DNA of 64,000 nucleotides from Actinomycetota bacterium (GCA_016717115.1 JADKGE010000003.1:85037-149036); one strand, 5' to 3'; positions 3,948 through 46,781 are shown, counted from the first letter of the stretch. Notes: generated by a model not told the origin, from the letters alone. Translations and numbers: made by a program.

Positions 3948-3972
3948 CCATCCACACAACTAGGAGAGCTCC

Positions 3973-4356
3973 ATGTTCAACGACAACGGATCGTTCCTGC
4001 TCGCCCTTTTCGAGTTCTTCCTGTTCTTCGCCTGGTTCATGTGCCTGTTCTGGGTGCTGGGCGACATCTTCCGCAGCAGCGACATGGGCGGCGGGGCCAA
4101 GACGTTCTGGATCATCTTCGTGATCATCATCCCGTGGTTGGGCATCCTCGTGTACGTCATCGCCCGCGGCAAGGGCATGCAGGAACGCCAACTCGAGCAG
4201 GCCAAGGCCATGCAGGCTGCTCAGTCCGAGTACATCAAGTCCGTCGCCGGCAGTACCACGGCGACCGACCAGATCTCCTCGGCCAAGGCTCTCCTCGACC
4301 AGGGCGTCATCACGCAGGACGAGTTCAACGCCCTGAAGTCCAAGGCCCTCGCCTGA
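3973..4356 (+). CDS. PLDc_N membrane domain plus SHOCT domain protein
   Basis: The N-terminal hydrophobic segment FFLFFAWFMCLFWVLGDIF...WIIFVIIIPWLGILVYVIARG is PLD-nuclease-N type. The C-terminal LLDQGVITQDEFNALKSKAL is SHOCT type. Confidence 0.7.
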   Translation: MFNDNGSFLLALFEFFLFFAWFMCLFWVLGDIFRSSDMGGGAKTFWIIFVIIIPWLGILVYVIARGKGMQERQLEQAKAMQAAQSEYIKSVAGSTTATDQISSAKALLDQGVITQDEFNALKSKALA

Positions 4357-4419: not shown

Positions 4420-4752
4420 ATGGCTCCTCTTGACCGGATCACCCGCTCCATCGACGTGATGGGCGGGAAGCCGTGCGTGGGCCGCACCCGGGTAACGATT
4501 GGCACTGTGGTCGGCCTCGTCGCGGCGGGTACGTCGATCGCGGAGATCCTGGACGCCTACCCGTACCTGGACGAGCAGGACGCGATGCAGGCCCTCGCGT
4601 GCGCCGCTTGGCGAGTCGAGGAGATCGAGAGCCCGATGCCCCCGACCGCGAGATCCTCGAGCAGGCGCACCGCAACGGGCAGGTCATCCTCACCCAGGAC
4701 CTGGGCTTCGGCACCCCACTCGCTGTCGGGAGCCTGGCGACACCGAGCGTGA
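4420..4752 (+). CDS. DUF433 (antitoxin-like) protein; the frame runs on into the remnant of the partner gene
   Basis: GGKPCVGRTRVTIGTVVGLVAAGTSIAEILDAYPYLDEQDAMQALACAA is canonical DUF433. A native stop is expected near 4630 but is absent, so the C-terminal 40 aa are probably not native. Confidence 0.55.
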   Translation: MAPLDRITRSIDVMGGKPCVGRTRVTIGTVVGLVAAGTSIAEILDAYPYLDEQDAMQALACAAWRVEEIESPMPPTARSSSRRTATGRSSSPRTWASAPHSLSGAWRHRA

Positions 4753-4896
4753 TCCACTTCGGCGCCCAAGCGGTCCTGCCGAGGGATGTGGGCGAGCAAC
4801 TGCTCGCCGCCCTGGATGTGGCGCGCACTCACCTCGAGACCGGGTGCGCTGGTCACCGTGGATCCCATGAGGCCTCGGGCCACGGTCCTGCCCATC
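4644..4896 (+). pseudogene. DUF5615 / Mut7-C-like (PIN-type toxin partner of DUF433) remnant: N-terminally deleted and frameshifted
   Basis: Frame 1 reads REILEQAHRNGQVILTQDLGFG...SVIHF. After a +1 shift in the GGG run near 4841-4843 the next frame reads GALVTVDPMRPRATVLPI, the usual family C-terminus. There is no N-terminal 35 aa and no stop after LPI. Confidence 0.45.
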
Positions 4897-4904
4897 ACCA
4901 TGGA

Positions 4905-5200
4905 CGGTGCTCAGGCTCGGGCGGACCAGCCACGGAACGTACACATAGGTGCTCGCACTGCCCGTCGCCCTGTCTCCATGGCCCTCAGTGTCTCTGCGTG
5001 TCACTCAGTGTCACGAAACCTGTTGATAGGCAACGAATCCTGGAGGCGACCCCATGTGTGGGCGCAGTCTCCTAATGCTTATGTGCGGGGCCAAATCCCC
5101 GAGGCGGCTCCAGGCAAGACGGACATTCTGAAGGGCAACTGCCCAGGTCGTGGTGCGGGGAGGGTCGCCGTACCTGCCTGGTAGCGGCGAATTGACACTG
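4905..5200 (+). repeat. Structured intergenic element, copy B (left module like A, core and 3' modules like C)
   Basis: The core hairpin is CGGGG 5096-5100, loop CCAAAT, CCCCG 5107-5111, followed by AGGCGGCTCCAGGCAAGACGGACATTCTGAAGGGCAACTGCC. CCTGGAG 5039-5045 is complementary to CTCCAGG 5118-5124. A 3' hairpin lies at 5165-5190, then TTGACA at 5192-5197. Confidence 0.75.
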
Positions 5201-5511
5201 GGCGGGGTCAATGGGGTAGGCCAAGGTACGCGTCAGCCTTCAGGGTCCAATCCACGCGAGGCGGAACTCCGACAGCGCGACCGTCGTCAACTCGGCTCCG
5301 GTCGAGAGGAGAGGATGGACCGAACACCAACGGCAACTCTTGACTTGGCGGCAGGGGTCGGCCCACTCGCTCCTCTCCTGCAGGTTTGCCGCCATGCGGC
5401 GAGCCTTGGCCCCGCCGCGCGTACGGGGCGCACCCTGCGGGACCAGAGAAAGTCGGGCATACTGCCCGCGAAGCTGGAGACCCAGTCCGCCGAACTCGGC
5501 CGGAGGTACTC

Positions 5512-5814
5512 ATGCGTGCTCCGCGCATCCTGCTGGCCCTTGTCCCCATCGTCCTGGTCGCCGCGGCCTGCTCGTCGAGCACTGCTGTTCGCCAGGCCGA
5601 CGTCGAGGGCCAGGTCGCGGCGGCCATCGAGGAGGCGGGAGTCCCGGCGGACTCCTTCACCGTGGCGTGCCCTGGCGACCTGACCGGGACGGTCGGAACC
5701 ACCATGACGTGCACGGTCACCACGGACGCCAACACCTCCGAGGTCCTGCTCACGGTGACCACGGTCGATGGCGACACCGTGAACTTCGACATCGAGGACG
5801 TGCCGGCCTCCTAG
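5512..5814 (+). CDS. DUF4333-type secreted lipoprotein
   Basis: ATG at 5512 with GGAGG 5 nt upstream. Lipobox LVAAAC-SSS. The motif ...FTVACPGDLTGTVGTTMTCTVTT...VNFDIE is typical of DUF4333. Confidence 0.7.
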   Translation: MRAPRILLALVPIVLVAAACSSSTAVRQADVEGQVAAAIEEAGVPADSFTVACPGDLTGTVGTTMTCTVTTDANTSEVLLTVTTVDGDTVNFDIEDVPAS

Positions 5815-5827
5815 GCCGCGTGGTGTC

Positions 5828-5851
5828 CGAGGTCGGAATCCGACGGCCTCG
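5828..5851 (+). terminator. Candidate I-shaped intrinsic terminator
   Basis: Hairpin GTCGG-AAT-CCGAC extended by CGAG/CTCG, starting 14 nt after the stop at 5814. It has no U-tract, which is common in high-GC actinobacteria. Confidence 0.3.
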
Positions 5852-6073
5852 CCTCTGAGCAGGTCGCCTGGATCGCGGGGCCGAGGGCCTCGTTCCCATC
5901 TCCCGTGTCAAGAAGGTGGCATCCTCGACGTGCGATCGAACCCGAGTCCAAAAACCTAGGCACCCTCGACGTCTTCACCAGCAGTGGAGGCGGCCGGTCG
6001 CAGCGGGGTGCCGAGGGGCATACTCTGCGGCCCTGAGTGAGTTCTCGTGGCCGGAAGAGGAGGGTCGAGCCCC

Positions 6074-8359
6074 ATGAGGTTCCAGGCTTTCGTTGCCGTG
6101 ATCCGCCGGTACTGGGCGACGACACTCCTCGTGGCCATCGTGCTGGTCGCTGGAGTGGTGACCGGGGCGCTGTGGCAGGGCGTCGCAACAGGCACATCAC
6201 TCTTCGAGAACGTCGCCTACGGTCTGCCGGCGCTGCAGGCCGGTCGCTGGTGGACGTTCCTGACCGGGATGGCCTTCGCGCCGCAGCCGGTGCTGTACAT
6301 CCCGGTCCTCGTGCTCGTGGCCTGGGCGGCGAGCGTGTACGAGCGCCGCGTCGGTCACGTTCGAACCCTGGTGGTTGCCATCGGCGGCCAGGCCCTGGGC
6401 GCCCTGCTGACCGCACTGTTCTTGATGCCGTTCGACGAGAGTGGCTGGACCTGGGCACGCGACCTCGGCAACGAGTACGACCTCGGCATCTCCGCCGGTG
6501 GACTTGCCCTGGTCGGAGCGCTTACGGCTGTCATGCAGCCCATCTGGCGTACCCGCGTCCGCGTGGGAGTGTTCGCGTATCTCATCGCCATGGTGCTCAA
6601 CTCCGGGTTGCTGTGGGACGTCGAGCACGTCGTGGCGTTCACGATCGCCGTGATGGCGGGTCCCTACCTGGCGGGTCGCCGTCCGAGCAGGCCGGTGTTC
6701 AGCTTCCAGCGCCGCACCCAGCGGTCGCTCGTGGCGCTGATCATCGCGGTCACGGCAGTCACGTCAGTGATCGAAGGCATGTTCCCGGGGACGGGCGGGC
6801 CGTTCCAGTCCGAGGGCTCGGCGCAGCACTCGACAGGTTTCGGCCTGGGCTTCATCGTCGGGGCGCTCCTCCTGCTCGTACTCGCTGATGGCCTCAGGCG
6901 TGGGCGACGCGTGGCGTGGATTCTCTCGACGGCGTTGCTCCTGCTGACCCTCGCTGGGGCGATCGCCGCTGAGCCGAGTTCAGAGCGCACCGCCGACATC
7001 TTCCTGGCATCCGCTCAGCTCCTTCTTCTCCTCGTCACTGTCCGCGCGTTCAGTTCGCGCCCACAGCAGCGGGCCGTTCGCCGCCTGGGCAAGCGCGTGC
7101 TCGTCGGCGGGGGAATCCTCATCGCCTACACGGTGATCGGGGCGCTCGTCCTGCAGGACGACTTCGCCGATCAGACTCTCCTGGCCGGACTGTTCGTCGC
7201 CTCGCTCACGGTGCTGTGGGTGGGGGCACTGTTCATGCTCGTGGTGGGGCTGGTGTACTCCAGCCGCCGCCCGGAGTCCGGAGCGGATGACGACGTGCGG
7301 CTCCGCGAGTTGCTGCGCAGCAGCCCCTCCTCGAATATCGAGTGGATGCTGACCTGGAAGGGCATCTCGGTCTGGTTCTCGCGGGACGGCCAGACCGCCA
7401 TCGGGTACGAGGTCGTGGGCTCGGTGGCCCTGTGCCTCGCAGACCCCGTCGGGCACTTGGACAGACGACTGGCCGCCCTGCACGAGTTCGACGAGTACTG
7501 CTTCGCGAACGGCTGGATCCCCTGCCTCTTCGCCGCGAGCCAGGCGACCGCGGACATGGCGCCGGACCTGCGGTGGAAGGCGATCGAGGTGGCCGAGGAC
7601 AGCGTGATGTCGCTCGACAATGTCGAGTTCGCCGGGAAGTCATGGCAGGACGTGCGTACCGCGCTCAACAAGGCCGGCAAGCAAGACATCGAGCTGCTGC
7701 CCACCCAGTGGGCGGACTGCGGGCCGGTGTTCACCGACCAGTTGCGGGCCATCAGCGGCGAGTGGGTCGGTGAGAAGGCGCTGCCCGAGATGGGCTTCAC
7801 CCTCGGCACCCTGCGGGAGGCGGACGACCCGGAGGTACGCCTCAACCTGGCGGTAGGGCCGGACAAGACGGTCGAGGGGTTCACGTCATGGATGCCAGTG
7901 GCCGAGAACGGGGAGGTCGTGGGCTGGACTCTCGACCTGATGCGTCGGCGTGACACGGGGTTCAGGCCGGTGATGGAGTTCCTTATCGGCGCATCGGCAC
8001 GCCAATTCCACGAGGAGGGCTACCGTTTCATCAGCTTGTCGGCGGCTCCGCTCGCGAAGGCCCCGACGGAGCTGCAAGGCAGCAGCGACGAGCAGGTGCT
8101 GCAGAAGCTGCTGAACCTCCTGGGCACCGTCCTCGAGCCCTACTACGGATTCCAGTCGCTGTTCCGGTTCAAGGAGAAGTTCAACCCCGAGCACCGGCCG
8201 CTGTACCTCGTGTTCCCTGACGAGACCGCCCTGGCCGAGATCGGCCTGGCGGTGGCACGGGCCTACATGCCTGACGCCGGGCTCGTCGACTGGGTGCGGA
8301 TGGGCTGGGAGATGGTCGTACCGAAACACCCGGTACCCCAGTCAGGAGGCACCGCATGA
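6074..8359 (+). CDS. Aminoacyl-phosphatidylglycerol synthase (MprF C-terminal DUF2156 domain) fused to a polytopic N-terminus with a rhomboid-like segment
   Basis: The C-terminal 350 aa (IEWMLTWKGISVWFS...GWTLDLMRRRDTGFRPVMEFLI...YRFISLSAAPLA...YYGFQSLFRFKEKFNPEHRPLYLVF) match the LPG-synthase C domain. ATG at 6074 follows GGAGGG; GTG at 6047 is an alternative start. Confidence 0.75.
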   Translation: MRFQAFVAVIRRYWATTLLVAIVLVAGVVTGALWQGVATGTSLFENVAYGLPALQAGRWWTFLTGMAFAPQPVLYIPVLVLVAWAASVYERRVGHVRTLVVAIGGQALGALLTALFLMPFDESGWTWARDLGNEYDLGISAGGLALVGALTAVMQPIWRTRVRVGVFAYLIAMVLNSGLLWDVEHVVAFTIAVMAGPYLAGRRPSRPVFSFQRRTQRSLVALIIAVTAVTSVIEGMFPGTGGPFQSEGSAQHSTGFGLGFIVGALLLLVLADGLRRGRRVAWILSTALLLLTLAGAIAAEPSSERTADIFLASAQLLLLLVTVRAFSSRPQQRAVRRLGKRVLVGGGILIAYTVIGALVLQDDFADQTLLAGLFVASLTVLWVGALFMLVVGLVYSSRRPESGADDDVRLRELLRSSPSSNIEWMLTWKGISVWFSRDGQTAIGYEVVGSVALCLADPVGHLDRRLAALHEFDEYCFANGWIPCLFAASQATADMAPDLRWKAIEVAEDSVMSLDNVEFAGKSWQDVRTALNKAGKQDIELLPTQWADCGPVFTDQLRAISGEWVGEKALPEMGFTLGTLREADDPEVRLNLAVGPDKTVEGFTSWMPVAENGEVVGWTLDLMRRRDTGFRPVMEFLIGASARQFHEEGYRFISLSAAPLAKAPTELQGSSDEQVLQKLLNLLGTVLEPYYGFQSLFRFKEKFNPEHRPLYLVFPDETALAEIGLAVARAYMPDAGLVDWVRMGWEMVVPKHPVPQSGGTA

Positions 8360-9912
8360 CCGCCGAACTCGACGGCTTCGAGTTGCAGGCGGCGATCGGC
8401 TCCGCCGCGACCGCGTCCGGGCATCCGGTCCTGAACGCCGGTCGAGGACAGCCGAACTGGCTGGCCACACAGCCACGCGACGCTGCCTTCGTGCTCGGGC
8501 GCTTTGCCCTTCGCGAAGCACGTGCCTCGAGCACGCATCCCGAATGGGGAATGACCCCCAACAGCGAGGGAATCGCTGACCGCCTCGCTCGGTCACTCAG
8601 CTCGGACGAGTCGGAGGGCGCGGACTTCCTGCGCAGTGCCGTCGAGTACGGGGTCACCACGTTCGGCTTCGAGCCTGACGCGTGGGTGCACGAGCTCGCG
8701 CGGGCCGTGCTGGGCGACGGGTACCCGTCGCCCAACCGCATGTTGGCCCACATCGAGAAGGTGATGGAGCGCTACCTGGTGGAGGCCAGCGGGGCGGAGC
8801 AGGCGCCTGTCGGCACGTATCAGGTGTTCGGCACAGAGGGCGGCGCGGCCGCGATGGCCTATGTGTTCCGGTCGTTGCAGGAGAACGGAGTGATCCGGCC
8901 TGGCGACAAGGTCGCGATCGCCACGCCCGTCTTCACCCCCTACCTGCAGATTCCGGTGCTCGAGGACTTCGGGCTCGAGGTGGTGCCGATCCACGCTGCG
9001 CACAACAGCCCGTCACGGTTCACCGACGACGTACTCGACCAGCTCCTCGATCCCGAGATCAAGGTGTTCTTCCTCGTCAACCCGGGAAACCCAGACAGTC
9101 GCGCGGTCAGACCGGAACGGCTGCGCGCCCTGCGTGACCTGGTCACCGAGAACCGACCTGATCTCGTCATCGTTGCCGACACCGTCTACGCCACGTTCGT
9201 CGAGGACTTCCGGGGGATGCTGGCCGACCTGCCTCATCACGTCGTCAGCGTGCACTCATTCTCCAAGAACTTCGGTGCGACTGGTTCGCGACTTGGCTTC
9301 GTCGCACTCCACCGCGACCATGTCCTCGACCGGATCCTTGCCGGCCAGGACGAGGAAATCCGCCAGGTGCAGGCGGACCGCTACTCGTCTCTGACGTCGG
9401 ACGTCACGGCGCTGTCCTTCATGGCTCGGATGGTTGCCGACAGCCGCGAGGTGGCGCTGCACAACATCACCGGCCTGGCCACGCCCGATCAGCTTCAGAT
9501 GGCGTTCTTCGCGCTCGCGTACCTGATGCCCTCCGGGCGGTCCTACATCGCGGCGACGCGCGCCGAGCTGGCCGCGCGCGATGCCGCGCTCCGGGCTCCG
9601 CTGCAGATCCCGCCGCCTGGCGGTCAGGACAGCATGTACTACGCACTCGTCGACCTGCTGCAGGTCACCGAGGCGCTCTGCGGTCCAGGCGGAGTCGAGC
9701 GCCTGATGGCCAGTCAGACGCCGACGGCGATCCCGCTCAAGCTCGCGCAGGAGTACGGCGTGATCGTCCTGCCGGGTCAGCTCTACGGCGCGCACTCGTG
9801 GGACGTCCGCGTCTCGCTCGCCTCTCTGACCGTGGACGAACTTGGCCGCGTGGGAGCCGCGCTCGCCGCAGTGCTGACGGACATGGCAGGCCTACCGGTC
9901 CGAGGAAGGTAG
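8356..9912 (+). CDS. Aspartate 4-decarboxylase-like class I/II PLP aminotransferase
   Basis: The ATGA overlap with the preceding stop suggests translational coupling. LNAGRGQPNWLATQPRDAAF and the PLP-lysine block SFSKNFGATGSRLGF resemble the AsdA family. Confidence 0.65.
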   Translation: MTAELDGFELQAAIGSAATASGHPVLNAGRGQPNWLATQPRDAAFVLGRFALREARASSTHPEWGMTPNSEGIADRLARSLSSDESEGADFLRSAVEYGVTTFGFEPDAWVHELARAVLGDGYPSPNRMLAHIEKVMERYLVEASGAEQAPVGTYQVFGTEGGAAAMAYVFRSLQENGVIRPGDKVAIATPVFTPYLQIPVLEDFGLEVVPIHAAHNSPSRFTDDVLDQLLDPEIKVFFLVNPGNPDSRAVRPERLRALRDLVTENRPDLVIVADTVYATFVEDFRGMLADLPHHVVSVHSFSKNFGATGSRLGFVALHRDHVLDRILAGQDEEIRQVQADRYSSLTSDVTALSFMARMVADSREVALHNITGLATPDQLQMAFFALAYLMPSGRSYIAATRAELAARDAALRAPLQIPPPGGQDSMYYALVDLLQVTEALCGPGGVERLMASQTPTAIPLKLAQEYGVIVLPGQLYGAHSWDVRVSLASLTVDELGRVGAALAAVLTDMAGLPVRGR

Positions 9913-9922
9913 CCCCGGATGT

Positions 9923-11302
9923 TCAGGCGCGCGAGCGGGCGCGCTGTGCCTCCATGTGCACGTCGAACTCCTCGCGCCACGTCTCGCTAACCGCGATGCC
10001 ATTGCGCCGAGCCTCCTCGGTGCTGAGCTCGACCGGGAAGCCGTAGGTGTCGTAGAGGACGAACAGCTCGGCACCGGTGACGCCGGTGGCCCGGTGCCCC
10101 TTCAACTGCTTGATGCCCTTGCGAAGGGTCCTACGGAAGGCCTGCTCCTCCTTCGACAGCACGTCGATGACTGAGTCGGCGTGCTCGGAGACCTCGGGGA
10201 AGTGATGCGTGTAGATGCCGGAGATCGTCGGGACGATCTGGGGAAAGAAGTTCTCCTCCAGCCCGAGGTCGAACGCATACCGGGTGGCCCTGCGGATGAG
10301 CCGTCGCATGACGTAGCCCTGTGCCTTGTTGCTGGGGCGTACGCCGTCGACAGCGAGGAACGTGGCGCCGCGCAGGTGATCGGCGATGACTCGCATCGCT
10401 CGTGTCTCGTCCTCGTAGCGCTTGCCAGACAGCTCCTCGAGCTTCTCCACGATCGGCCACAGCAGCCCGATCCGGAAGACGTCGCCGGTGTTGATGGCTG
10501 CGGCGGCGATGCGGGCGAGGCCGCCGCCGTAGTCCACGTTGCGACGAGGCAGGGGCTCGAAACCGGTCTCGGTGCGTCGGTACTCCATGAAGACGGAGTT
10601 CCCCAGCTCGATGAAGCGCCCGCAGTCGCAGTTCTGGTGACAGTGTGGCCCGTAGGCTGGGTCGTGCTCGATGTCCGGGAAAAGGTAGAACACCTCGGTG
10701 TCTGGTCCGCCGGGCTCACCCACGGGCATGTCCTCTGCGGTGCCGCCGCGGCACCACCAATTCTTCTTGCCGTAGAAGGCGATGCGAGCGCCACCGGTGC
10801 CCTGCAGAGCAGCGTTCTCCTCGCTACCGAGTTCCACTTGGTCTGAGGAGATGCCAGCTGCCGTGAACAGTTCGGTCCAGATGCCTGCTGACTCGGTGTC
10901 CTTGGGAATGCCGTGGGCGGGGTCACCGATGAAGCAGGAGACGTAGATGCGCTCCGGGCTCAGTCCCACTCGCTCGGTGAGGAACGTCCAGAACTGCCTG
11001 ATCTGGACATCCTTGAAGTAGTCGCCCAGGCTCCAGCAGCCGAGCATCTCGAAGAAGGTGGTGTGACGGCTGTCGCCGACCTCCTCGATGTCCTGCACGC
11101 GCAGGCATGTCTGACTGTCGGTGAGACGCCGGCCATCGGGATGGTCCTGTCCGAGCAGGTACGGGAGGAGGGGCTGCATGCCGCTGCCCGTGAACAGGGT
11201 CGTGGGGTCATCCTTCGGAATCAGCGGAGCACGCGGGATAACCGTGTGGCCTTGCTCGGCCATGTACTCGAGAAAGGCACTGCGAATCTGATCGGCGTCC
11301 AT
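9923..11302 (-). CDS. Alanine--tRNA ligase catalytic-fragment paralog (aminoacylation plus tRNA-recognition domains only; no editing or C-Ala domain)
   Basis: From the ATG at 11302, MDADQIRSAFLEYMAEQGH...DDPTTLFTGSGMQ...HTTFFEMLGCWSLGDYFK...VIADHLRGATFL...PSNKAQGYVMRRLIRRA...LYDTYGFPVEL...MEAQRARSRA is collinear with E. coli AlaRS residues 1 to about 461 and stops there. Confidence 0.8.
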   Translation of the reverse strand: MDADQIRSAFLEYMAEQGHTVIPRAPLIPKDDPTTLFTGSGMQPLLPYLLGQDHPDGRRLTDSQTCLRVQDIEEVGDSRHTTFFEMLGCWSLGDYFKDVQIRQFWTFLTERVGLSPERIYVSCFIGDPAHGIPKDTESAGIWTELFTAAGISSDQVELGSEENAALQGTGGARIAFYGKKNWWCRGGTAEDMPVGEPGGPDTEVFYLFPDIEHDPAYGPHCHQNCDCGRFIELGNSVFMEYRRTETGFEPLPRRNVDYGGGLARIAAAAINTGDVFRIGLLWPIVEKLEELSGKRYEDETRAMRVIADHLRGATFLAVDGVRPSNKAQGYVMRRLIRRATRYAFDLGLEENFFPQIVPTISGIYTHHFPEVSEHADSVIDVLSKEEQAFRRTLRKGIKQLKGHRATGVTGAELFVLYDTYGFPVELSTEEARRNGIAVSETWREEFDVHMEAQRARSRA

Positions 11303-11660
11303 GAACCTATTCGACACTAGGCGTGGCCACCCTGTCAGACGATCCCACCACCGGCCGCCGCCGTCGTGACAATGCGTGCCCAGTTTGCGGGCTACTCGAA
11401 ACTCGACTAATCTCACGACCGATCAAGGGGGATGCGCACTTGGGGCGCCCCGCCAGGTTCAACTCCTGGGTCCTCCACAATGCGCCGCTGGCCGCCTGTG
11501 AGGCGGCCAGCGGCGTTGTTCGTAAGCATCCATGCTGGATGCCTTCTAAGTCGCATCCACTATGCGGCTCGCCGTGGGACCGCTGCACCTCGTCGACAGC
11601 CGACACCTCCCGAACGCGCACATCGAGAATGCGGTCGCAGCGCGAAGTCCTTGATATGAA
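11303..11660 (-). promoter_or_regulatory. Long structured 5' leader of the AlaRS-like gene (candidate attenuator or riboswitch-like element)
   Basis: A 13-bp perfect hairpin spans 11484-11514. GCATCC (11526), GGATGC (11537) and GCATCC (11553) allow mutually exclusive pairings. A CCAGG-N7-CCTGG hairpin lies at 11453-11469. GGGUGGCCACGCC on the minus strand lies 20-35 nt before the start. There is no convincing SD. Confidence 0.35.
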
Positions 11661-11705
11661 ACGGTTTCATGTCTGCTGGAATTGCGCGCACGCCAAGGAC
11701 CGGGC

Positions 11706-13235
11706 ATGGTTCCGCTGTTGGCTCACCCCGTCGAAGGGCTCCTCGTGCGTGGATTCCGTACCTCCCGTGTGTTCGCTTGGATCGGCGTCGGTGCTGTTGC
11801 CGCCGGCGTCCTCGTATCTGTCCCGGCTCCGGCGGCCGCCGCGTCCACCCTGCCGTGGGCGTCATGTGGCGAGGCGGGCCTGGATGCGGGGGGCTTCCAG
11901 TGCGCCACGCTTACTGTCCCGAAGGATCGCAAGAATCCCAAGGACGGCACGATCAAGCTCGCGGTCATCCGGCATCCCAGCACGGGCACACCGGAGCAGC
12001 GCATCGGCTCACTGGTGCTCAACCCGGGCGGTCCAGGCGGCGCAGGAACCGAGGTCGTCGAGCCCATCTGGGCAGCCCTGCCTGACGAGATCAAGGCCCG
12101 CTTCGACCTGGTGTCGTGGGATCCTCGCGGAGTCGGCCAGTCCACGCCGGCGCTGAAGGGCTGCGACGCGCCGTGGCCAGACCGGCCCGACACCGGCCCC
12201 GTCAACTGGGCGAAGGTCGCCACGGCGTTCCAGAAGACCCTGGCGAAGGCCAACGCCGACTGCCAGGCGAAGAACGCCGACCTCGTCCCCTTCATGGGGA
12301 CCAACGAGAACGTCGAGGACCTGGACCGGCTCCGGGCCGCGCTCGGCGACGAGAAGCTGACGTTCTGGGGTATCAGCTACGGCACGCGCATCGGATACCT
12401 GTACGCACTCAAGCATCCCGAGCGCACCCGAGCCATCATCCTCGACGGCTCCATCGATCCGGCCGGCACGACTCTGGGCTTCGCCGACGGCGGCTCGGCC
12501 TCTGATCAGGCCTTCGGAGTGTTCGCCCAGCTGTACCCCAAGGCCGCGGCCGCGATCCAGCTCTCGCTGGCGAAGCTGAACACGAAGACCGTTCCCCTGC
12601 CCAACGGCACTGAGCTCACCCGCTGGGATGTCATCGACTTCGTCTACAACGCGATCGCCCAGGAGCGGGTCTACGCGCCCATCGCCGACCAGGTCGCGGG
12701 TCTGCTCTACGCGGCGGTCTTCGGCAAGGGCGCGCAGCAGGCTGCGGCCGCCGAGGCGGCGGTCGGCGTGTTCGCCCGCCAGCCCAACGCGAACGCGGGT
12801 GGCGTCTTCTCGGTGGTCAACTGCCTGGACTACCCGGGGCGGCCGGGCCTCCAGCAGGCGATCTCTGCCATCAACACGCAGCGTCGGTACGGCCCGGTCA
12901 ACGGCGCCACCACCACGACCTCGTTCGTGCTGGGCTGCTCCGGGCTGTCGATGAAGCCGGACCCCGTCCCGCTCATCGGCGGGCAGGGTCCGGACGTCCC
13001 GCTCCTGATCCTCGGGGCGACGCGCGACGGATCGACCCCCCAGATGTGGACTGCGCGCATGTCGCGGGCGTTCCCCCAGTCCCGCACAGTGACCTACGCC
13101 GGCGGTCTGCACGGCACGTGGGTCGCGAGCAACGGGGACTGCGTGAACTCCGTCGCCAACACCTATGTCACGACGCTGGCACTGCCCGCGACGGACCTCG
13201 CCTGCCCGAACTCCTACCAGCCACCAAGCAACTAG
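11706..13235 (+). CDS. Secreted alpha/beta-hydrolase, tripeptidyl-aminopeptidase-like (S33) serine peptidase
   Basis: ATG at 11706 follows AAGGA. Signal-like N-terminus. LVLNPGGPGGAG, WDPRGVGQS and the nucleophile elbow FWGISYGT are present. Confidence 0.75.
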   Translation: MVPLLAHPVEGLLVRGFRTSRVFAWIGVGAVAAGVLVSVPAPAAAASTLPWASCGEAGLDAGGFQCATLTVPKDRKNPKDGTIKLAVIRHPSTGTPEQRIGSLVLNPGGPGGAGTEVVEPIWAALPDEIKARFDLVSWDPRGVGQSTPALKGCDAPWPDRPDTGPVNWAKVATAFQKTLAKANADCQAKNADLVPFMGTNENVEDLDRLRAALGDEKLTFWGISYGTRIGYLYALKHPERTRAIILDGSIDPAGTTLGFADGGSASDQAFGVFAQLYPKAAAAIQLSLAKLNTKTVPLPNGTELTRWDVIDFVYNAIAQERVYAPIADQVAGLLYAAVFGKGAQQAAAAEAAVGVFARQPNANAGGVFSVVNCLDYPGRPGLQQAISAINTQRRYGPVNGATTTTSFVLGCSGLSMKPDPVPLIGGQGPDVPLLILGATRDGSTPQMWTARMSRAFPQSRTVTYAGGLHGTWVASNGDCVNSVANTYVTTLALPATDLACPNSYQPPSN

Positions 13236-43510: not shown

Positions 43511-44464
43511 ATGGAAGTGGTGCCGGCCATGACTTTCCGGTCATCCGTTGCGGTAGGGGTTGGGGTCGTCGCGGGAGCGATTGCCCTGGTCACGGTGACG
43601 CCCACGGCCGGCGCCTCACCTGTTGCACTTCAACCGATGTCGATGGCTCGGGTGGCGACCCCCGTGATCGCAACTCCGCGAACGGAACCGACCGCTCGCG
43701 AAGCGAGTTGGAGGGCCGTCTTGTGCGACAGCGGCCTGGCGCAACTGCCGACGCTGCGGGCGTCCTCGACTCGGACCAGCAGCGCGGCTGCGCGAGTGGT
43801 CCAGGCGGCTCTCATCGATCTTGATTTCCCGCCGCCGGTGCCCATCAAGGTCGACGGCTGGTACGGCCCGGCGACGGCCTCGGCAGTGACCGCATACCAG
43901 CGCTCGAGGGGGCTGGTCGTGGACGGAGTCGTCGGCCAGCAGACGTGGCGGCAGTTGCGCCGGGATGTATGCGGCGAGCCGGCCTCCGCCACAAGGGGGA
44001 GCACCACCATCGTGCTGAAGGTCTCTGGATGCGACGGCTGCGTGCTCACCCCCCGGTCCGTCCGTCAGACGACGTCAGGGATGACGCCCTACCTCGATTG
44101 GAAAGGCCCGGCGCTGACGGTCACCGATGGCGGTGCCAGCTTCGTCATTCCCACCGCCAACACACGGGGGATGTCCATCGAGATCGCAGCGCCATGGGCG
44201 AGCGGCGACCTGGGCGCGGTCCCGCTCATCGCGCTGTCCAAGGGGCGACCGAGCGAGTACGACCCCTCGGCGAGGGAGGGCGTGCACTGCTGGAAGGGCA
44301 CGACCGCGTCTCAGGCGGTCCTCCCCATCAATGTCAGGCGCGAGACTGTCGGCGCGATGGGCGGCGGCAAGGCCGTGGCGCCGAATGCCTACCTGGCCAA
44401 TCTGGGCCCGTCGGACGACATCCCGGGGCATCAGGATCTTCCCTACTGCACCGTCCCCCGCTGA
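43511..44464 (+). CDS. Secreted protein with peptidoglycan-binding (PG_binding_1) domain
   Basis: VVQAALIDLDFPPPVPIKVDGWYGPATASAVTAYQRSRGLVVDGVVGQQTWRQL. Signal-like N-terminus, with an alternative start at 43529. Confidence 0.65.
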   Translation: MEVVPAMTFRSSVAVGVGVVAGAIALVTVTPTAGASPVALQPMSMARVATPVIATPRTEPTAREASWRAVLCDSGLAQLPTLRASSTRTSSAAARVVQAALIDLDFPPPVPIKVDGWYGPATASAVTAYQRSRGLVVDGVVGQQTWRQLRRDVCGEPASATRGSTTIVLKVSGCDGCVLTPRSVRQTTSGMTPYLDWKGPALTVTDGGASFVIPTANTRGMSIEIAAPWASGDLGAVPLIALSKGRPSEYDPSAREGVHCWKGTTASQAVLPINVRRETVGAMGGGKAVAPNAYLANLGPSDDIPGHQDLPYCTVPR

Positions 44465-44711
44465 TCACGGGCACGGGCCCACGCCAAGGTGTCAGCCTGC
44501 TGAGGCGAGCTTGCCCTCGCGGGCTGACCCTTGGTCACGGCGAGCCTGCGCTAGGCAGCGCCGCAGGGTTGGGAATCCCGAGGTGCCCGATCCGACGCTG
44601 AGGTACGGTGAAACGGACATATGGGCCGCCACGCGCGCCTCGGCGACGGCATCCCTCCGGGTTCTCGCTGAGCAAGCACCTTTCGTAGGGAGCACGACCT
44701 TGACTCGTCGC

Positions 44712-46781
44712 ATGGTTGCGTCCGTCTGGCTCGCTGTCTGCCTGGCCGCATCAACGGTTTCCGCCGGTTCCGCGCTAGCCGACACCGGTCCGAGGACCGC
44801 GTTTCCGGACACGCTCGCCGTGGCCCGCGCTGCCGCGGTAGACGTGATGCGGGAGACCGGGGCGACATCGATCTCTCTGGCCCTGGTCGAAGGGAAGCGG
44901 ACGGTGTGGTCGACGACGGTGGGGGCCATCGACGAGAACGGCACCACGCCGACCGCATCGACGCTGTACGGCATCGGCTCGGTGAGCAAGATGTTCGCGA
45001 CCGTCTCCGTGATGCAGCTGGTGGATGCGGGCAAGGTGTCGCTCGATGCGCCGGTGACCGACTACGTCACGGACTTCACGATGGCCTCACCGGAGTACCG
45101 ACAGGTCACGGTCAGGATGCTTCTGAACCACAGTGCCGGCTTCCCGGGCACGGACTACCCGAACGGATTCACCAGCACGCCCTTCCCCGGGTACGCGCAG
45201 CAGGTGCTCGACACCCTGGCGACCTCGAGGCTGAAGACGACGCCCGGCGCGATGAGCGTGTACTGCAACGACTGCTTCACCCTCGCCGGCATCCTCGTCG
45301 AGCGGATGAGCGGGCTGCCTTTCACCGACTACGTGCAGCAGCGCATCCTCACGCCACTGGGCATGGACCTGTCGCGCTACCCGTTGACCCCGCTGACGCC
45401 GGGCTCGTACGCACCGGTCCTGACCGACACCGGCGCTCTGCCGGCGGAGATCACCAACATCCACGCCTCCGGCGGACTGCTGTCCACCCCGGACGACCTC
45501 GGGCGCCTGGCCGCGGTGCTCCTGAACGGCGGCGCCCTTAACGGAGTGCGGATCCTTTCCGCCGGCGCCGTGAAGGAGATGGGCCGCAGTCAACTGCCGA
45601 CCACGCTGACTGCCGGTCCCCCGTTCCTGGACTACGGCCTCGGCTGGGACTCGGCCAGAGAGCCCGGACTCGCCGCCGCGGGTGTGGACGGCTGGATGAA
45701 GGGCGGTGACACCGTCCAGTACCACGCGTCGTTCACCCTCGCCCCCACGGAGAAGGTGGCCGCGGTCGTCCTGGGGGCAGGAACGACACTCTCCTCGACC
45801 GCCCTAGAAGCCCTGGCACAGCGCATGGTTCTGTCCGCGCTGGCCGAGAAGGGTGCCATCGCGGGTCTCCCGAAGCCGTTGACGGGCCCAGCCCCGCGTC
45901 ATGTCGCCCCGACCGGTGCGGAGACGGCGAACATCGCCGGGACCTACCTCGCCCAGGGTGCGGTCCTGCGCGTGACGGCTCGCAAGGACGGCGCTCTGAG
46001 GGTCTCCGTGTACCGAGGTGAGGAGTGGGTCACGCTTCCGAGCACCTTCACCCTGCGCAGCGACGGGCAGTACTGGCCCAACGGGACGGCTGCGTCCGCG
46101 GCGTCCACTCTCAGCCTCGCTCGCGGCTGGGGCCGCACCTTCCTCGTCCAGAACCAAGTGGGCGGAATCGGCCACTATCGCGAGCATGTGCTGCTGGGGC
46201 AGAAGGCCACTTCCGTCGATCCTCTGCCGCCGGCGTGGCAGCAGCGGGTCGGCCAGATCTGGCTGAACGTCAACGAGACGCCCGACTCGATCTACTGGGA
46301 GGCGCTGCCAACGCTCGCCCTCTCAGCGGTCCCGGGGCTGCCCGGCTTCCTCTGGGTCGCTGATCCCATAGCCCCGTCGCCCGTCGACCCGCAGACGAGC
46401 GATGACGTCGCCACCATGTTCCTGACGGTCCCCATCGCGCAGGGGCGTGACTTGAACGACCTCCAGGTCGAGCATCGGACGAATGGAGAGTGGCTGCGCT
46501 TCGGCAGTTCGCTGTACCGGCCGCTGTCGAGTGTTCCGGCCATCACCGCCGGCTCCAACGAGGTCATGATCGGATCCGACGGCTACGCCGAGTGGCGGAC
46601 GGCCCCCCTAGGCGGCCCGGTGACGATCGCGGGGAACGGGTCCTGGAAGGTGTTCGCGGGCGATGGAGAGCTCGTAGGTCAGGGCGTCGCGGACGGAGCC
46701 GCGGTGTCGCTGCCTGCGGGGGCGCGGATCGCGGTGTTCGGTCCGGCAGGCGCGGTGCTCGAGGTACGCCACACGGCCTGA
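44712..46781 (+). CDS. Secreted serine hydrolase (beta-lactamase / PBP4*-like, class C fold) with a large C-terminal extension
   Basis: ATG at 44712 with a signal peptide. SxxK motif GIGSVSKMFATV and LLNHSAGFPG. The upstream 195 codons of the track ORF are probably untranslated. Confidence 0.7.
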   Translation: MVASVWLAVCLAASTVSAGSALADTGPRTAFPDTLAVARAAAVDVMRETGATSISLALVEGKRTVWSTTVGAIDENGTTPTASTLYGIGSVSKMFATVSVMQLVDAGKVSLDAPVTDYVTDFTMASPEYRQVTVRMLLNHSAGFPGTDYPNGFTSTPFPGYAQQVLDTLATSRLKTTPGAMSVYCNDCFTLAGILVERMSGLPFTDYVQQRILTPLGMDLSRYPLTPLTPGSYAPVLTDTGALPAEITNIHASGGLLSTPDDLGRLAAVLLNGGALNGVRILSAGAVKEMGRSQLPTTLTAGPPFLDYGLGWDSAREPGLAAAGVDGWMKGGDTVQYHASFTLAPTEKVAAVVLGAGTTLSSTALEALAQRMVLSALAEKGAIAGLPKPLTGPAPRHVAPTGAETANIAGTYLAQGAVLRVTARKDGALRVSVYRGEEWVTLPSTFTLRSDGQYWPNGTAASAASTLSLARGWGRTFLVQNQVGGIGHYREHVLLGQKATSVDPLPPAWQQRVGQIWLNVNETPDSIYWEALPTLALSAVPGLPGFLWVADPIAPSPVDPQTSDDVATMFLTVPIAQGRDLNDLQVEHRTNGEWLRFGSSLYRPLSSVPAITAGSNEVMIGSDGYAEWRTAPLGGPVTIAGNGSWKVFAGDGELVGQGVADGAAVSLPAGARIAVFGPAGAVLEVRHTA

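What the first reader, a model, noticed from the sequence alone, without database searches (positions are those of the whole stretch)
6074..11302. Self-contained alanyl-lipid module: aaPG-synthase domain, aspartate 4-decarboxylase-like enzyme and a private AlaRS fragment
Three adjacent genes fit one pathway. An AsdA-like PLP enzyme would convert L-Asp to L-Ala plus CO2. An AlaRS catalytic fragment would convert Ala to Ala-tRNA(Ala). An MprF C-domain protein would transfer the aminoacyl group from tRNA onto phosphatidylglycerol or a related lipid. The synthase and decarboxylase genes overlap by ATGA (8356-8359), and the AlaRS paralog converges 10 nt downstream. Mycobacterial LysX (an MprF-LysRS fusion) sets a precedent for pairing an aaRS with an aaPGS. 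I am not aware of a described module that adds an amino-acid-generating decarboxylase and an editing-less AlaRS.
Basis: partly seen in the sequence, partly recalled or inferred. Interest (0 to 1): 0.75.

Follow-up and report, generated by a model that had tools for sequence, protein, structure and literature searches.

The report
Conserved three-gene alanyl-lipid module
An uncultured wastewater actinobacterium carries three adjacent genes (an aspartate-to-alanine decarboxylase, a shortened proofreading-free alanyl-tRNA synthetase, and a membrane transferase of the kind that moves amino acids from tRNA onto lipids), and this trio recurs in many Actinobacteria, which predicts a dedicated, so far undescribed route for attaching alanine to membrane lipids.

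Summary
Gene 6074-8359 (+) is a 761-aa membrane protein with a C-terminal DUF2156/aaPGS domain. Gene 8356-9912 (+) scores above the curated cut-offs for aspartate 4-decarboxylase. Gene 9923-11302 (-) is a 459-aa AlaRS with only the aminoacylation and tRNA-recognition domains. The ATGA overlap and the 10-nt convergent gap are real.

Of 42 species-level loci anchored on AsdA, 23 carry all three genes within 10 kb and 7 more carry one partner. No other gene family is co-conserved. All three pairwise adjacencies occur. Two phylogenetically separate clades of truncated AlaRS occupy the same position in Actinomycetes and in Acidimicrobiia. Both keep the alanine-activation residues, unlike the transferase AcmF.

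The most likely pathway is Asp -> Ala -> Ala-tRNA(Ala) -> alanyl-lipid. The acceptor lipid, the purpose of the dedicated Ala supply and all activities are inferred, not shown. The truncated AlaRS also occurs alone in other genomes, and there is no private tRNA. I found no prior description. This is a new variant of tRNA-dependent lipid aminoacylation.

The parts
6074..8359 (+). Membrane aminoacyl-tRNA:lipid transferase candidate, 761 aa. Architecture: rhomboid-fold domain + 6 MprF/LysX-like TM helices + cytoplasmic DUF2156 synthase domain.
   Evidence: PF09924 E 2.9e-67. Residues 220-716 align to P. aeruginosa MprF 373-869. Twelve hydrophobic helices. 100% identical to P0241, 'DUF2156 domain-containing protein', from an Actinobacteria MAG.
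6074..6718 (+). N-terminal rhomboid-fold domain (aa 1-215, 6 TM). It replaces the 8-TM flippase part of canonical MprF.
   Evidence: AlphaFold2 model with mean pLDDT 93.9. The top 34 Foldseek PDB hits are all GlpG/iRhom, with target-normalised TM-scores of 0.5-0.72 for GlpG. Homologs carry PF20401/PF01694. Pfam on the window protein itself gives only E 4.6.
6728..7246 (+). Six TM helices homologous to the synthase-proximal TM helices of MprF/LysX.
   Evidence: Hydropathy scan. NCBIfam MprF profile positions 315-837 and LysX 21-565 are matched. Weak PF16995 tRNA-synt_2_TM hit.
7310..8212 (+). DUF2156 / LPG_synthase_C catalytic domain, the tRNA-dependent aminoacyl transferase.
   Evidence: Pfam profile 3-297 of 298 is matched. 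The LDLMR and RFKEKF motifs align with those of P. aeruginosa MprF.
8356..8359 (+). ATGA stop/start overlap that couples the transferase and AsdA genes. AGGAGG lies at 8344-8349.
   Evidence: Sequence read. The same 4-nt overlap or a gap under 50 nt appears in most Acidimicrobiia loci.
8356..9912 (+). Aspartate 4-decarboxylase (AsdA), 518 aa, PLP-dependent. Predicted reaction: L-Asp -> L-Ala + CO2.
   Evidence: Above both NCBIfam equivalog cut-offs. E 2.5e-112 to solved ASD structures. The equivalents of R37 (AGRG), Y134 (GYP) and the SFSK lysine are conserved.
9913..9922 (.). 10-nt spacer between the convergent stop codons of asdA and the AlaRS paralog.
9923..11302 (-). Truncated AlaRS paralog, 459 aa. 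It has the aminoacylation and tRNA-recognition domains only, with no editing domain and no C-Ala domain.
   Evidence: PF01411 profile 1-429 of 552 and no PF07973. Below the alaS equivalog cut-offs. Aligns over its whole length with catalytic fragments 3hxu and 1riq. Motif-2 Arg, Trp, Asn, Val, Asp, Gly, motif-3 Arg, the PSN Asn and the YDT Asp are all conserved. Start ATG 11302 agrees with the Humibacillus ortholog.

Best explanation
The three genes form one functional module for tRNA-dependent alanylation of a membrane lipid.

1. AsdA makes L-alanine from L-aspartate in the cytoplasm.
2. The truncated AlaRS is a natural counterpart of the laboratory AlaRS catalytic fragments. It activates alanine and charges the cell's ordinary tRNA(Ala), without proofreading.
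3. The DUF2156 domain is held at the inner face of the membrane by 12 helices. It transfers the alanyl group from Ala-tRNA(Ala) to a hydroxyl of a membrane lipid: phosphatidylglycerol, diacylglycerol, cardiolipin or a related lipid.
4. The membrane part (the rhomboid-fold domain plus six MprF-like helices) probably presents the lipid and may help move the product to the outer leaflet.

Shown here: domain identities, conservation of catalytic residues, and recurrent gene linkage in many species.

Inferred: every enzymatic activity, alanine as the transferred residue, the acceptor lipid, the flow of Asp-derived alanine into the lipid, and any role of the rhomboid domain.
For: Family assignments with curated cut-offs and solved-structure relatives.

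Linkage: in 42 AsdA-anchored species-level loci, 23 have all three genes within 10 kb. One has the transferase only and 6 have the truncated AlaRS only. De novo clustering of all ORFs in these loci finds only these three families co-conserved: 38, 26 and 23 loci, with the next family at 8. All three pairwise adjacencies exist:
- transferase-AsdA (L033);
- AsdA-AlaRS, as an abutting same-strand pair in Humibacillus and Terrabacter and convergent in Pengzhenrongella;
- transferase-AlaRS without AsdA (L136).

Two separate truncated-AlaRS clades fill the same slot: 99/100 and 100/100 bootstrap, not sister in an NJ tree, and differing by about 35 aligned positions. The window itself combines an Acidimicrobiia-type transferase (62-78% identity) with an Actinomycete-type AlaRS.

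Both AlaRS clades keep the Ala-activation residues. The window clade also keeps the acceptor-stem-reading Asn and Asp.

The even TM count (12) puts the DUF2156 domain in the cytoplasm, where aa-tRNA is available.

Precedents for a dedicated aaRS feeding a DUF2156 domain are LysX and ErdS (PMC6103681, PMC7334510, PMC9437257). An Actinobacteria-specific aaPGS type that uses Ala-tRNA(Ala), AlaDAGS, is known (PMC6103681).
Against: No activity was measured.

A dedicated alanine supply has no obvious rationale, because alanine is normally abundant.

Twelve AsdA loci have neither partner, though some sit on short contigs.

The truncated AlaRS clade is wider than the module. It stands alone in Agromyces, Microbacterium, another MAG and metagenome contigs.

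There is no dedicated tRNA. An editing-free AlaRS would therefore release Ser- or Gly-tRNA(Ala) into the shared pool.

The amino-acid specificity of the DUF2156 domain cannot be read from sequence.

The window subclade has Glu->Ala next to the motif-3 Arg (GLAR instead of GLER), with unknown effect.

I could not verify that a full-length alaS exists in the same genome. None is present in the window.
Confidence: 0.6

Rival explanations
1. The genes are functionally linked, but AsdA is not a precursor supplier. Aspartate decarboxylation (proton-consuming, alanine-producing) and lipid aminoacylation would be two parallel arms of one envelope or acid-stress response, co-transcribed for co-regulation only.
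For: Lipid aminoacylation systems are linked to low pH. Solved relatives are named 'Low pH-inducible protein LpiA' and 'Protein regulated by acid pH'. Alanine is normally not limiting (general knowledge). AsdA is dispensable in some arrangements: L136 has transferase + AlaRS only.
Against: The tightest pair in Micrococcales is AsdA with the AlaRS paralog, abutting on the same strand and without the transferase. That arrangement argues for a direct Ala -> tRNA hand-over. No Asp:Ala antiporter or other stress gene is co-conserved.
Confidence: 0.15
2. The module aminoacylates something other than a classical glycerolipid with alanine. The acceptor could be a non-lipid or unusual envelope molecule. 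Alternatively, the editing-free AlaRS could deliver Ser, Gly or a non-proteinogenic amino acid made by the AsdA-like enzyme.
For: DUF2156/GNAT-fold transferases act on varied acceptors: ergosterol for ErdS (PMC7334510), isobutylhydroxylamine for VlmA (PMC12945691) and DAG for AlaDAGS (PMC6103681). The transferase lacks the canonical flippase domain and scores far below the MprF and LysX equivalog cut-offs. Absence of editing permits mischarging.
Against: The transferase has 12 TM helices and MprF-like synthase-proximal helices, which favours a membrane lipid. The Ala-binding pocket residues are the canonical ones. AsdA passes the equivalog cut-offs and keeps R37, Y134 and the PLP lysine.
Confidence: 0.12
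3. The truncated AlaRS is not a synthetase. It would be an Ala-tRNA-dependent transferase or tRNA-binding adaptor, as shown for the truncated AlaRS-like AcmF in ascamycin biosynthesis.
For: AcmF has the same two-domain architecture, and a separate AlaRS (AcmD) supplies its Ala-tRNA (PMC12945691).
Against: AcmF lost most ATP- and Ala-binding residues and has N219Q and D232E. The window protein and both module-linked clades keep the equivalent Asn and Asp, plus the motif-2 and motif-3 arginines, Trp, Val and Gly.
Confidence: 0.05
4. The adjacency is inherited synteny or chance, without shared function.
For: Some lineages have AsdA alone or the AlaRS paralog alone.
Against: Gene order, orientation and spacing vary between lineages while the association persists. 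The flanking genes are not conserved. Two different AlaRS clades occupy the slot. The association spans two classes.
Confidence: 0.03

Closest known systems
MprF / aminoacyl-phosphatidylglycerol synthases, including P. aeruginosa AlaPGS and Corynebacterium AlaDAGS
   Same: Both have a C-terminal DUF2156 synthase domain preceded by synthase-proximal TM helices. Both are predicted to use aa-tRNA as donor. AlaPGS and AlaDAGS use Ala-tRNA(Ala) (PMC6103681).
   Different: The N-terminal 8-TM flippase part is replaced by a rhomboid-fold domain. The protein scores 195 bits against the 600-bit MprF equivalog cut-off. It is genetically coupled to a dedicated AlaRS paralog and AsdA, whereas known systems draw on the translational aa-tRNA pool and are paired with hydrolases (PesT, AhyD, VirJ).
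LysX of Mycobacterium (MprF-LysRS fusion)
   Same: A dedicated aaRS feeds a DUF2156 lipid aminoacyl transferase in Actinobacteria. The TM region is related: NCBIfam LysX hit at E 7e-40 and weak PF16995.
   Different: LysX is one polypeptide with a full LysRS. Here the aaRS is a separate, truncated AlaRS on the opposite strand, and an amino-acid-producing enzyme is added.
Fungal ErdS (AspRS-DUF2156) and ErgS
   Same: An aaRS paralog is coupled to DUF2156. The dedicated aaRS increases lipid aminoacylation (PMC7334510, PMC8913301).
   Different: ErdS is a soluble fusion in a eukaryote, with a sterol acceptor and Asp or Gly as the amino acid. It has no precursor-supply enzyme.
AcmD/AcmF of ascamycin biosynthesis (Streptomyces)
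   Same: AlaRS paralogs are recruited outside translation. AcmF has the same truncated two-domain architecture (PMC12945691).
   Different: AcmF is catalytically dead for activation and acts as a transferase. The protein here keeps the activation residues. The context is a nucleoside antibiotic cluster, not a lipid module.
E. coli AlaRS 441/461N and Aquifex AlaRS-453 laboratory fragments
   Same: They have the same extent: the query aligns at 5-458 with residues 6-436 of the 441-aa E. coli fragment. From general knowledge, such fragments activate Ala and charge tRNA(Ala), but mis-activate Ser and Gly and lack editing.
   Different: Those are engineered truncations of the housekeeping enzyme. 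This is a naturally occurring, strongly conserved gene (75-89% identity across genera). It derives from a ~627-aa short-form AlaRS lineage by loss of the tRNA_SAD tail.
AsdA/AspD with the Asp:Ala antiporter AspT (lactic acid bacteria), and industrial ASDs of Pseudomonas and Alcaligenes
   Same: Same enzyme family and predicted chemistry.
   Different: No antiporter is linked. The partner genes are an AlaRS paralog and a lipid aminoacyl transferase, which implies intracellular use of the alanine.
VlmA (with the dedicated SerRS paralog VlmL) in valanimycin biosynthesis
   Same: A separate, pathway-dedicated class II aaRS paralog supplies aa-tRNA to a GNAT-fold aa-tRNA transferase (VlmA: PMC12945691; VlmL from my own knowledge).
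   Different: VlmA is a soluble transferase acting on a small molecule in secondary metabolism. It uses Ser, not Ala.

Membership tests
aaPGS / MprF (DUF2156 lipid aminoacyl transferases) | C-terminal LPG_synthase_C (PF09924) domain covering the whole profile | tested here: met
   E 2.9e-67, profile 3-297 of 298. Aligns to the 4v34 and 4v36 synthase domains.
aaPGS / MprF (DUF2156 lipid aminoacyl transferases) | Conserved catalytic-site motifs of the synthase domain: D-x-x-R in LDLMR and the Lys in RFKxKF. Residue roles are recalled from the P. aeruginosa AlaPGS mutagenesis literature. | tested here: met
   LDLMRRR aligns with LDLMRVH, and RFKEKF aligns with RFKDKF of P. aeruginosa MprF.
aaPGS / MprF (DUF2156 lipid aminoacyl transferases) | Bifunctional architecture with an N-terminal flippase domain, which defines equivalog NF033480 | tested here: not met
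   195 bits against a 600-bit cut-off. Only profile positions 315-837 are matched. The N-terminus has a rhomboid fold instead.
aaPGS / MprF (DUF2156 lipid aminoacyl transferases) | tRNA-dependent aminoacylation of a membrane lipid | not testable with these tools
   Requires lipidomics or an in vitro transfer assay.
Aspartate 4-decarboxylase (AsdA; TIGR03801 / NF006755) | Score above the curated equivalog cut-offs over the full length | tested here: met
   525.7 bits against 321, and 499.6 against 435.1.
Aspartate 4-decarboxylase (AsdA; TIGR03801 / NF006755) | PLP lysine (SFSK) plus the equivalents of Arg37 and Tyr134 of the solved Pseudomonas enzyme | tested here: met
   The alignment to 2zy3 shows AGRG, GYP and SFSKNFGATG. 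These positions are invariant in 20 homologs.
Aspartate 4-decarboxylase (AsdA; TIGR03801 / NF006755) | Asp -> Ala + CO2 activity | not testable with these tools
   Requires an enzyme assay.
Alanyl-tRNA synthetase (alaS equivalog) | Class II catalytic core with Ala-pocket residues: motif-2 Arg, Trp, Asn, Val, Asp, Gly and motif-3 Arg | tested here: met
   All are conserved in the window protein and in both module-linked clades. The window subclade has GLAR in place of GLER.
Alanyl-tRNA synthetase (alaS equivalog) | tRNA-recognition domain with the acceptor-stem-reading Asn (PSN) and Asp (YDT) | tested here: met
   Conserved in the window clade. The Asn is Ala in the Acidimicrobiia clade.
Alanyl-tRNA synthetase (alaS equivalog) | Editing domain (tRNA_SAD) and C-Ala domain | tested here: not met
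   The ORF stops after the tRNA-recognition domain and has no PF07973. It scores 345 bits against 457 and 374 against 529. The closest longer relatives of ~627 aa do have tRNA_SAD.
AcmF-like Ala-tRNA-dependent transferases | Loss of activation residues (Asn->Gln and Asp->Glu; most ATP and Ala ligands gone) | tested here: not met
   The Asn and Asp are retained (compared).
LysX / ErdS-type aaRS-DUF2156 fusions | aaRS and DUF2156 in one polypeptide | tested here: not met
   The genes are separate and on opposite strands. The apparent fusions P0181 and P0137 are out-of-frame artefacts.
Rhomboid intramembrane serine proteases | Six-TM rhomboid fold | tested here: met
   pLDDT 93.9. Foldseek hits with probability near 1 are exclusively GlpG/iRhom, with target-normalised TM-scores of 0.5-0.72 for GlpG.
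Rhomboid intramembrane serine proteases | Catalytic Ser-His dyad and TM2 His/Asn | tested here: inconclusive
   A Ser (GISAG) is at least 90% conserved. A His (VEH) is present in the window protein, but it is replaced in the Kitasatospora, Lentzea and Pseudonocardia relatives. No TM2 HxxxN is evident. The Pfam Rhomboid models do not reach significance on the window protein.

The most novel reading that the evidence does not exclude
The module would be a translation-insulated supply line. Aspartate is decarboxylated on site. A naturally minimal, editing-free AlaRS charges tRNA(Ala) at the membrane. The product is channelled directly into a transferase whose rhomboid-fold domain has been co-opted as the lipid-handling or flipping element, or as the docking platform for the soluble partners. 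It would therefore not act as a protease. The system has been assembled at least twice with different AlaRS lineages, and it yields alanyl-lipids that are widespread but unrecognised in environmental Actinobacteria.
Probability: 0.3. Interest if true: 0.8.

Novelty: new variant of a known kind. Interest (0 to 1): 0.66.

Why it matters
tRNA-dependent lipid aminoacylation is a major route by which bacteria tune surface charge and resist cationic antimicrobials. How cells divide aa-tRNA between translation and the membrane is an open question.

This module suggests one natural answer: a dedicated synthetase plus its own amino-acid source.

It also reveals a widespread, strongly conserved AlaRS paralog lacking proofreading. 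AlaRS is regarded as one of the least duplicated synthetases (PMC5388404), and serine mis-charging by AlaRS is usually considered dangerous.

It adds a new domain architecture, rhomboid fold fused to DUF2156, and so a possible non-proteolytic role for a rhomboid fold in lipid handling.

All predictions are directly testable by expressing three genes and running lipid LC-MS.

Tried and rejected
1. Regulatory RNA or private tRNA. Rfam at permissive threshold over 4500-12500 gave only a chance-level sRNA hit. There is no tRNA in the window and none recurrent in 30 module loci.
2. Secreted TAP-like alpha/beta hydrolase (11682-13235) as a conserved aa-lipid hydrolase partner. It is not conserved in any related locus.
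3. Natural fusions of AsdA with DUF2156 (P0181) or extended AsdA (P0137). The linker and tail are out-of-frame translations, so these are artefacts.
4. AcmF-like transferase reading. Rejected on active-site residues.
5. Housekeeping alaS in the window. The 887-aa ORF at 44118-46781 is a beta-lactamase-family protein, and no second AlaRS is present. Coexistence of a full-length alaS therefore stays untested.
6. Asp:Ala antiporter or any other co-conserved neighbour. None was found. Lone-AsdA loci sit beside urease and luciferase-like genes, which reflects plain synteny.
7. Metagenome scan anchored on the truncated AlaRS. It returned mostly ~627-aa short-form AlaRS with a tRNA_SAD tail, and none lay next to AsdA or DUF2156. 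This was useful for tracing origin but not for linkage.
8. Promoter and terminator consensus scan. It was uninformative.
9. Smith et al. 2015 (seven aaPGS types; PMC4639916). The paper is not held, so I could not check whether the rhomboid-fused type or its neighbours were noted there.
10. First bootstrap tree with Biopython's distance calculator. It timed out and was redone with numpy.

Full report
**1. What is in the sequence**

Three intact ORFs with coding-type third-position GC (0.83-0.87) occupy 6074-11302.

The first gene is 6074-8359 (+). Its start is ATG 6074, 8 nt after GGAGG. This gives a 761-aa product identical to a public MAG protein annotated only as 'DUF2156 domain-containing protein' (P0241). 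The same contig type is found in wastewater metagenomes. The product carries PF09924 LPG_synthase_C at E 2.9e-67.

The second gene is 8356-9912 (+) and overlaps the first by ATGA, with AGGAGG 6 nt upstream. It passes both NCBIfam equivalog cut-offs for aspartate 4-decarboxylase: 525.7 bits against 321, and 499.6 against 435.1. It aligns end to end with the solved Pseudomonas and Alcaligenes L-aspartate beta-decarboxylases at E 2.5e-112. The equivalents of Arg37, Tyr134 and the SFSK lysine are kept.

The third gene is 9923-11302 (-) and converges on asdA with a 10-nt spacer. It encodes a 459-aa protein matching only the first 429 of 552 positions of the class II AlaRS catalytic-domain profile. 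It falls below the alaS equivalog cut-offs. It is co-extensive with the crystallised catalytic fragments of E. coli (441 aa) and Aquifex (453 aa) AlaRS.

**2. Anatomy of the transferase**

- Residues 220-716 align with residues 373-869 of P. aeruginosa MprF. These are the synthase-proximal helices plus the synthase domain, including the LDLMR and RFKxKF motifs.
- The first 215 residues are unrelated to the MprF flippase part. An AlphaFold2 model built on 21 homologs has mean pLDDT 93.9.
- Its Foldseek matches in the PDB are exclusively rhomboid proteins. The top 34 hits are GlpG or iRhom, with target-normalised TM-scores of 0.5-0.72 for GlpG. More distant homologs carry Pfam Rhomboid and Rhomboid_2 hits, and NCBI names them 'rhomboid family intramembrane serine protease'.

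A hydropathy scan gives 6 + 6 helices, an even number that puts the DUF2156 domain in the cytoplasm.

A candidate Ser (GISAG) is well conserved. The candidate His is lost in the Kitasatospora, Lentzea and Pseudonocardia relatives, and no TM2 HxxxN is evident. Protease activity is therefore doubtful.

No paper in the library mentions rhomboid together with DUF2156, and the four papers that hold both 'rhomboid' and 'MprF' are unrelated to this fusion.

**3. Is the AlaRS fragment a synthetase?**

A truncated AlaRS-like protein with the same two domains, AcmF, is known to be an Ala-tRNA-dependent transferase. AcmF has lost the activation residues and carries N219Q and D232E (PMC12945691).

I therefore checked the active site. 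The following residues are all present in the window protein:

- the motif-2 Arg (CLR);
- the Trp (NWW);
- the Asn and Val (GNSVF);
- the Asp and Gly (VDYGGG);
- the motif-3 Arg;
- the two residues that read the acceptor stem, the Asn of PSN and the Asp of YDT.

The only oddity is GLAR instead of GLER in the closest subclade.

The protein is highly conserved, at 75-89% identity among Pengzhenrongella, Humibacillus, Terrabacter, Microbacterium, Agromyces and Nakamurella. NCBI labels it 'alanine--tRNA ligase-related protein'.

Its nearest longer relatives are ~627-aa 'short-form' AlaRS proteins that end in a tRNA_SAD editing module. The window clade is that lineage minus the ~167-aa editing tail. 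It is best read as an active, editing-free AlaRS.

**4. Is the linkage conserved?**

I anchored a scan of one genome per GTDB species on an AsdA alignment. I then located all three proteins by tblastn. Of 42 AsdA-bearing loci:

| Partners within 10 kb | Loci |
|---|---|
| Rhomboid-DUF2156 gene and a truncated AlaRS | 23 |
| Transferase only | 1 |
| Truncated AlaRS only | 6 |
| Neither (several on short contigs) | 12 |

Arrangements differ by lineage.

- Pseudonocardia (about 10 species) repeats the window's arrangement: transferase -> asdA, then a convergent AlaRS.
- Acidimicrobiia/Ilumatobacteraceae (about 12 species) have the transferase directly upstream of asdA, often with the same 4-nt overlap. 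The truncated AlaRS lies 0-5 kb away, sometimes after an inserted P-type ATPase.
- In Humibacillus and Terrabacter the AlaRS paralog abuts asdA on the same strand.

An unbiased clustering of all ORFs in these loci finds only these three families co-conserved (38, 26 and 23 loci; the next family is in 8). Flanking genes differ between lineages.

A further MAG locus, L136, has the truncated AlaRS convergent with a rhomboid-DUF2156 gene and no AsdA. All three pairwise adjacencies therefore occur.

**5. Two AlaRS lineages in one slot**

I built a bootstrapped NJ tree of catalytic domains.

- The Actinomycete paralogs (window, Micrococcales, Nakamurella, Pseudonocardia) form one clade with 99/100 support, nested among short-form AlaRS.
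- The Acidimicrobiia module-linked proteins form another clade with 100/100 support. They are also truncated right after the tRNA-recognition domain and group nearer to full-length bacterial AlaRS.
- The two clades differ by about 35 aligned positions of insertions.

Deep nodes of an NJ tree are weak, so independent recruitment is likely but not proven.

The window's module is itself mixed. Its transferase is 62-78% identical to Acidimicrobiia proteins but only 34-46% identical to the Pseudonocardia type. Its AlaRS is 59% identical to the Pseudonocardia type and 38% to the Acidimicrobiia type. Its AsdA groups with Pengzhenrongella and Ilumatobacter.

The association thus persists through component replacement. 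That is strong evidence that the requirement is functional: 'a truncated AlaRS next to AsdA and the transferase'.

**6. Most likely mechanism**

The proposed chain is Asp -> (AsdA) -> Ala -> (truncated AlaRS, ordinary tRNA(Ala)) -> Ala-tRNA(Ala) -> (DUF2156) -> alanyl-lipid.

Shown: the family memberships, the intact catalytic residues, the topology and the conserved linkage.

Inferred: each activity, alanine as the residue transferred, the acceptor lipid and the metabolic hand-over.

An Actinobacteria-specific aaPGS type that uses Ala-tRNA(Ala) on diacylglycerol, AlaDAGS, is known. It is encoded with a putative esterase, PesT (PMC6103681). Rhomboid-DUF2156 genes of Kitasatospora and Lentzea are preceded by an overlapping PF00756 esterase gene. 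The family may therefore be related to AlaDAGS, but I could not obtain that sequence to test the idea.

Precedents for a dedicated aaRS feeding DUF2156 are LysX and fungal ErdS (PMC6103681, PMC7334510, PMC9437257).

Weak points:

- Why alanine needs a private source is unclear.
- There is no private tRNA, so an editing-free enzyme would leak mischarged tRNA(Ala) unless the product is channelled or cleared in trans.
- The truncated AlaRS also occurs alone, and AsdA also occurs alone.
- I could not verify a full-length alaS in the same genome.

**7. Rivals**

- Co-regulation without metabolic hand-over, as a shared acid or envelope-stress operon. This is weakened by the tight AsdA-AlaRS pairs that lack the transferase.
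- A different acceptor or amino acid. This is not excluded. The 12-TM architecture and the canonical Ala pocket argue for an Ala-lipid.
- An AcmF-like transferase role. This is rejected on residues.
- Chance or synteny. This is rejected by the comparative data.

**8. Novelty**

Full-text searches found nothing for combinations of AsdA, AlaRS and MprF/aaPGS. The broader searches for aminoacylated lipids, AlaRS paralogs and rhomboid/DUF2156/MprF returned nothing that describes this module.

Reviews of lipid aminoacylation and of aaRS duplication do not list such an AlaRS paralog. A survey of more than 2500 genomes counts AlaRS among the most evolutionarily stable synthetases, in contrast to those that often have paralogs (PMC5388404).

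The key 2015 classification of aaPGS types is not in the library, so a passing mention there cannot be excluded.

I class the finding as a new variant of a known kind: tRNA-dependent lipid aminoacylation with a dedicated aaRS. It has three new features:

- an unfused, naturally editing-free AlaRS;
- an amino-acid-generating decarboxylase;
- a rhomboid-fold membrane domain.

**9. Verdict**

Interest is 0.66. Confidence that the three genes are functionally linked is about 0.85. Confidence in the full Asp -> Ala -> tRNA -> lipid chain is about 0.6.

Noticed in passing
window 6074-6718: The DUF2156 protein's first 215 residues have a rhomboid (GlpG-like) fold instead of the MprF flippase domain. 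The fusion is widespread in Actinobacteria (Kitasatospora, Lentzea, Streptomyces, Pseudonocardia, Terrabacter, Leifsonia) and appears undescribed.
   Followed up: yes
L034 13391-14206 (-) and L014 1040-1852 (-): Ilumatobacter-type loci carry an extra stand-alone paralog of the rhomboid-like domain (34-36% identity). In I. nonamiensis it lies immediately downstream of, and overlapping, the truncated AlaRS gene on the same strand. This hints at a physical link between the AlaRS and a rhomboid-fold membrane protein.
   Followed up: partly
L136 11440-14900: In one MAG the truncated AlaRS converges on a rhomboid-DUF2156 gene. That gene's upstream same-strand neighbour is an alanine racemase, another alanine-interconverting PLP enzyme, in the position AsdA has elsewhere. 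This is a single locus and may be coincidence.
   Followed up: partly
L049 6694-8004 and L050 6736-8034: In Kitasatospora and Lentzea the rhomboid-DUF2156 gene is preceded by an overlapping PF00756 'putative esterase' gene. The arrangement is reminiscent of the alaDAGS-pesT operon of Corynebacterium. Kitasatospora also has a second, LysX-TM-type DUF2156 gene 2 kb upstream.
   Followed up: partly
window 11682-13235 (+): A secreted (signal peptide) TAP-like alpha/beta hydrolase is transcribed divergently from the AlaRS paralog. It is a plausible aa-lipid hydrolase by analogy with AhyD, VirJ and ErdH, but it is not conserved in any related locus.
   Followed up: partly
L006 11577-14030 (-) and five other Acidimicrobiia loci: A P-type ATPase (DKTGT motif) of about 800 aa is inserted between asdA and the truncated AlaRS in six Acidimicrobiia loci.
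   Followed up: no
L061 7001-8884 and about 60 other metagenome loci (L059-L134): A widespread ~627-aa 'short-form' AlaRS (catalytic + tRNA-recognition + tRNA_SAD, no C-Ala) is the closest longer relative (50-63% identity) of the truncated clade. In L061 it sits near iscS-mnmA-like genes. Whether it is a housekeeping enzyme or a second AlaRS is unknown.
   Followed up: partly
window 10616-10645 (-), aa 220-229 of the AlaRS paralog: A Cys/His cluster, HCHQNCDCGR, is conserved in the Micrococcales subclade and in some short and full-length AlaRS. It is replaced by HPHQNSDGGQ in the Pseudonocardia paralogs and absent in the Acidimicrobiia clade. It may be a metal site of unknown relevance.
   Followed up: no
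window 10514-10516 (-), aa 263 of the AlaRS paralog: The Glu before the motif-3 Arg is Ala (GLAR versus GLER) in the window, Micrococcales and Nakamurella subclade only. In the Acidimicrobiia clade the acceptor-stem-reading Asn of PSN is Ala.
   Followed up: no
window 3964-4356 (+); L002 2636-3031 (-): A small PLDc_N + SHOCT membrane protein lies 1.7 kb upstream of the module in the window. A similar one lies 5 kb upstream of the lone truncated AlaRS in Agromyces aureus. This is probably a common actinobacterial gene.
   Followed up: no
L044 4015-4090 (+): A tRNA-Ala(CGC) gene lies about 3 kb upstream of asdA in the Nakamurella locus. It is the only tRNA-Ala near any of the 30 module loci scanned.
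   Followed up: no
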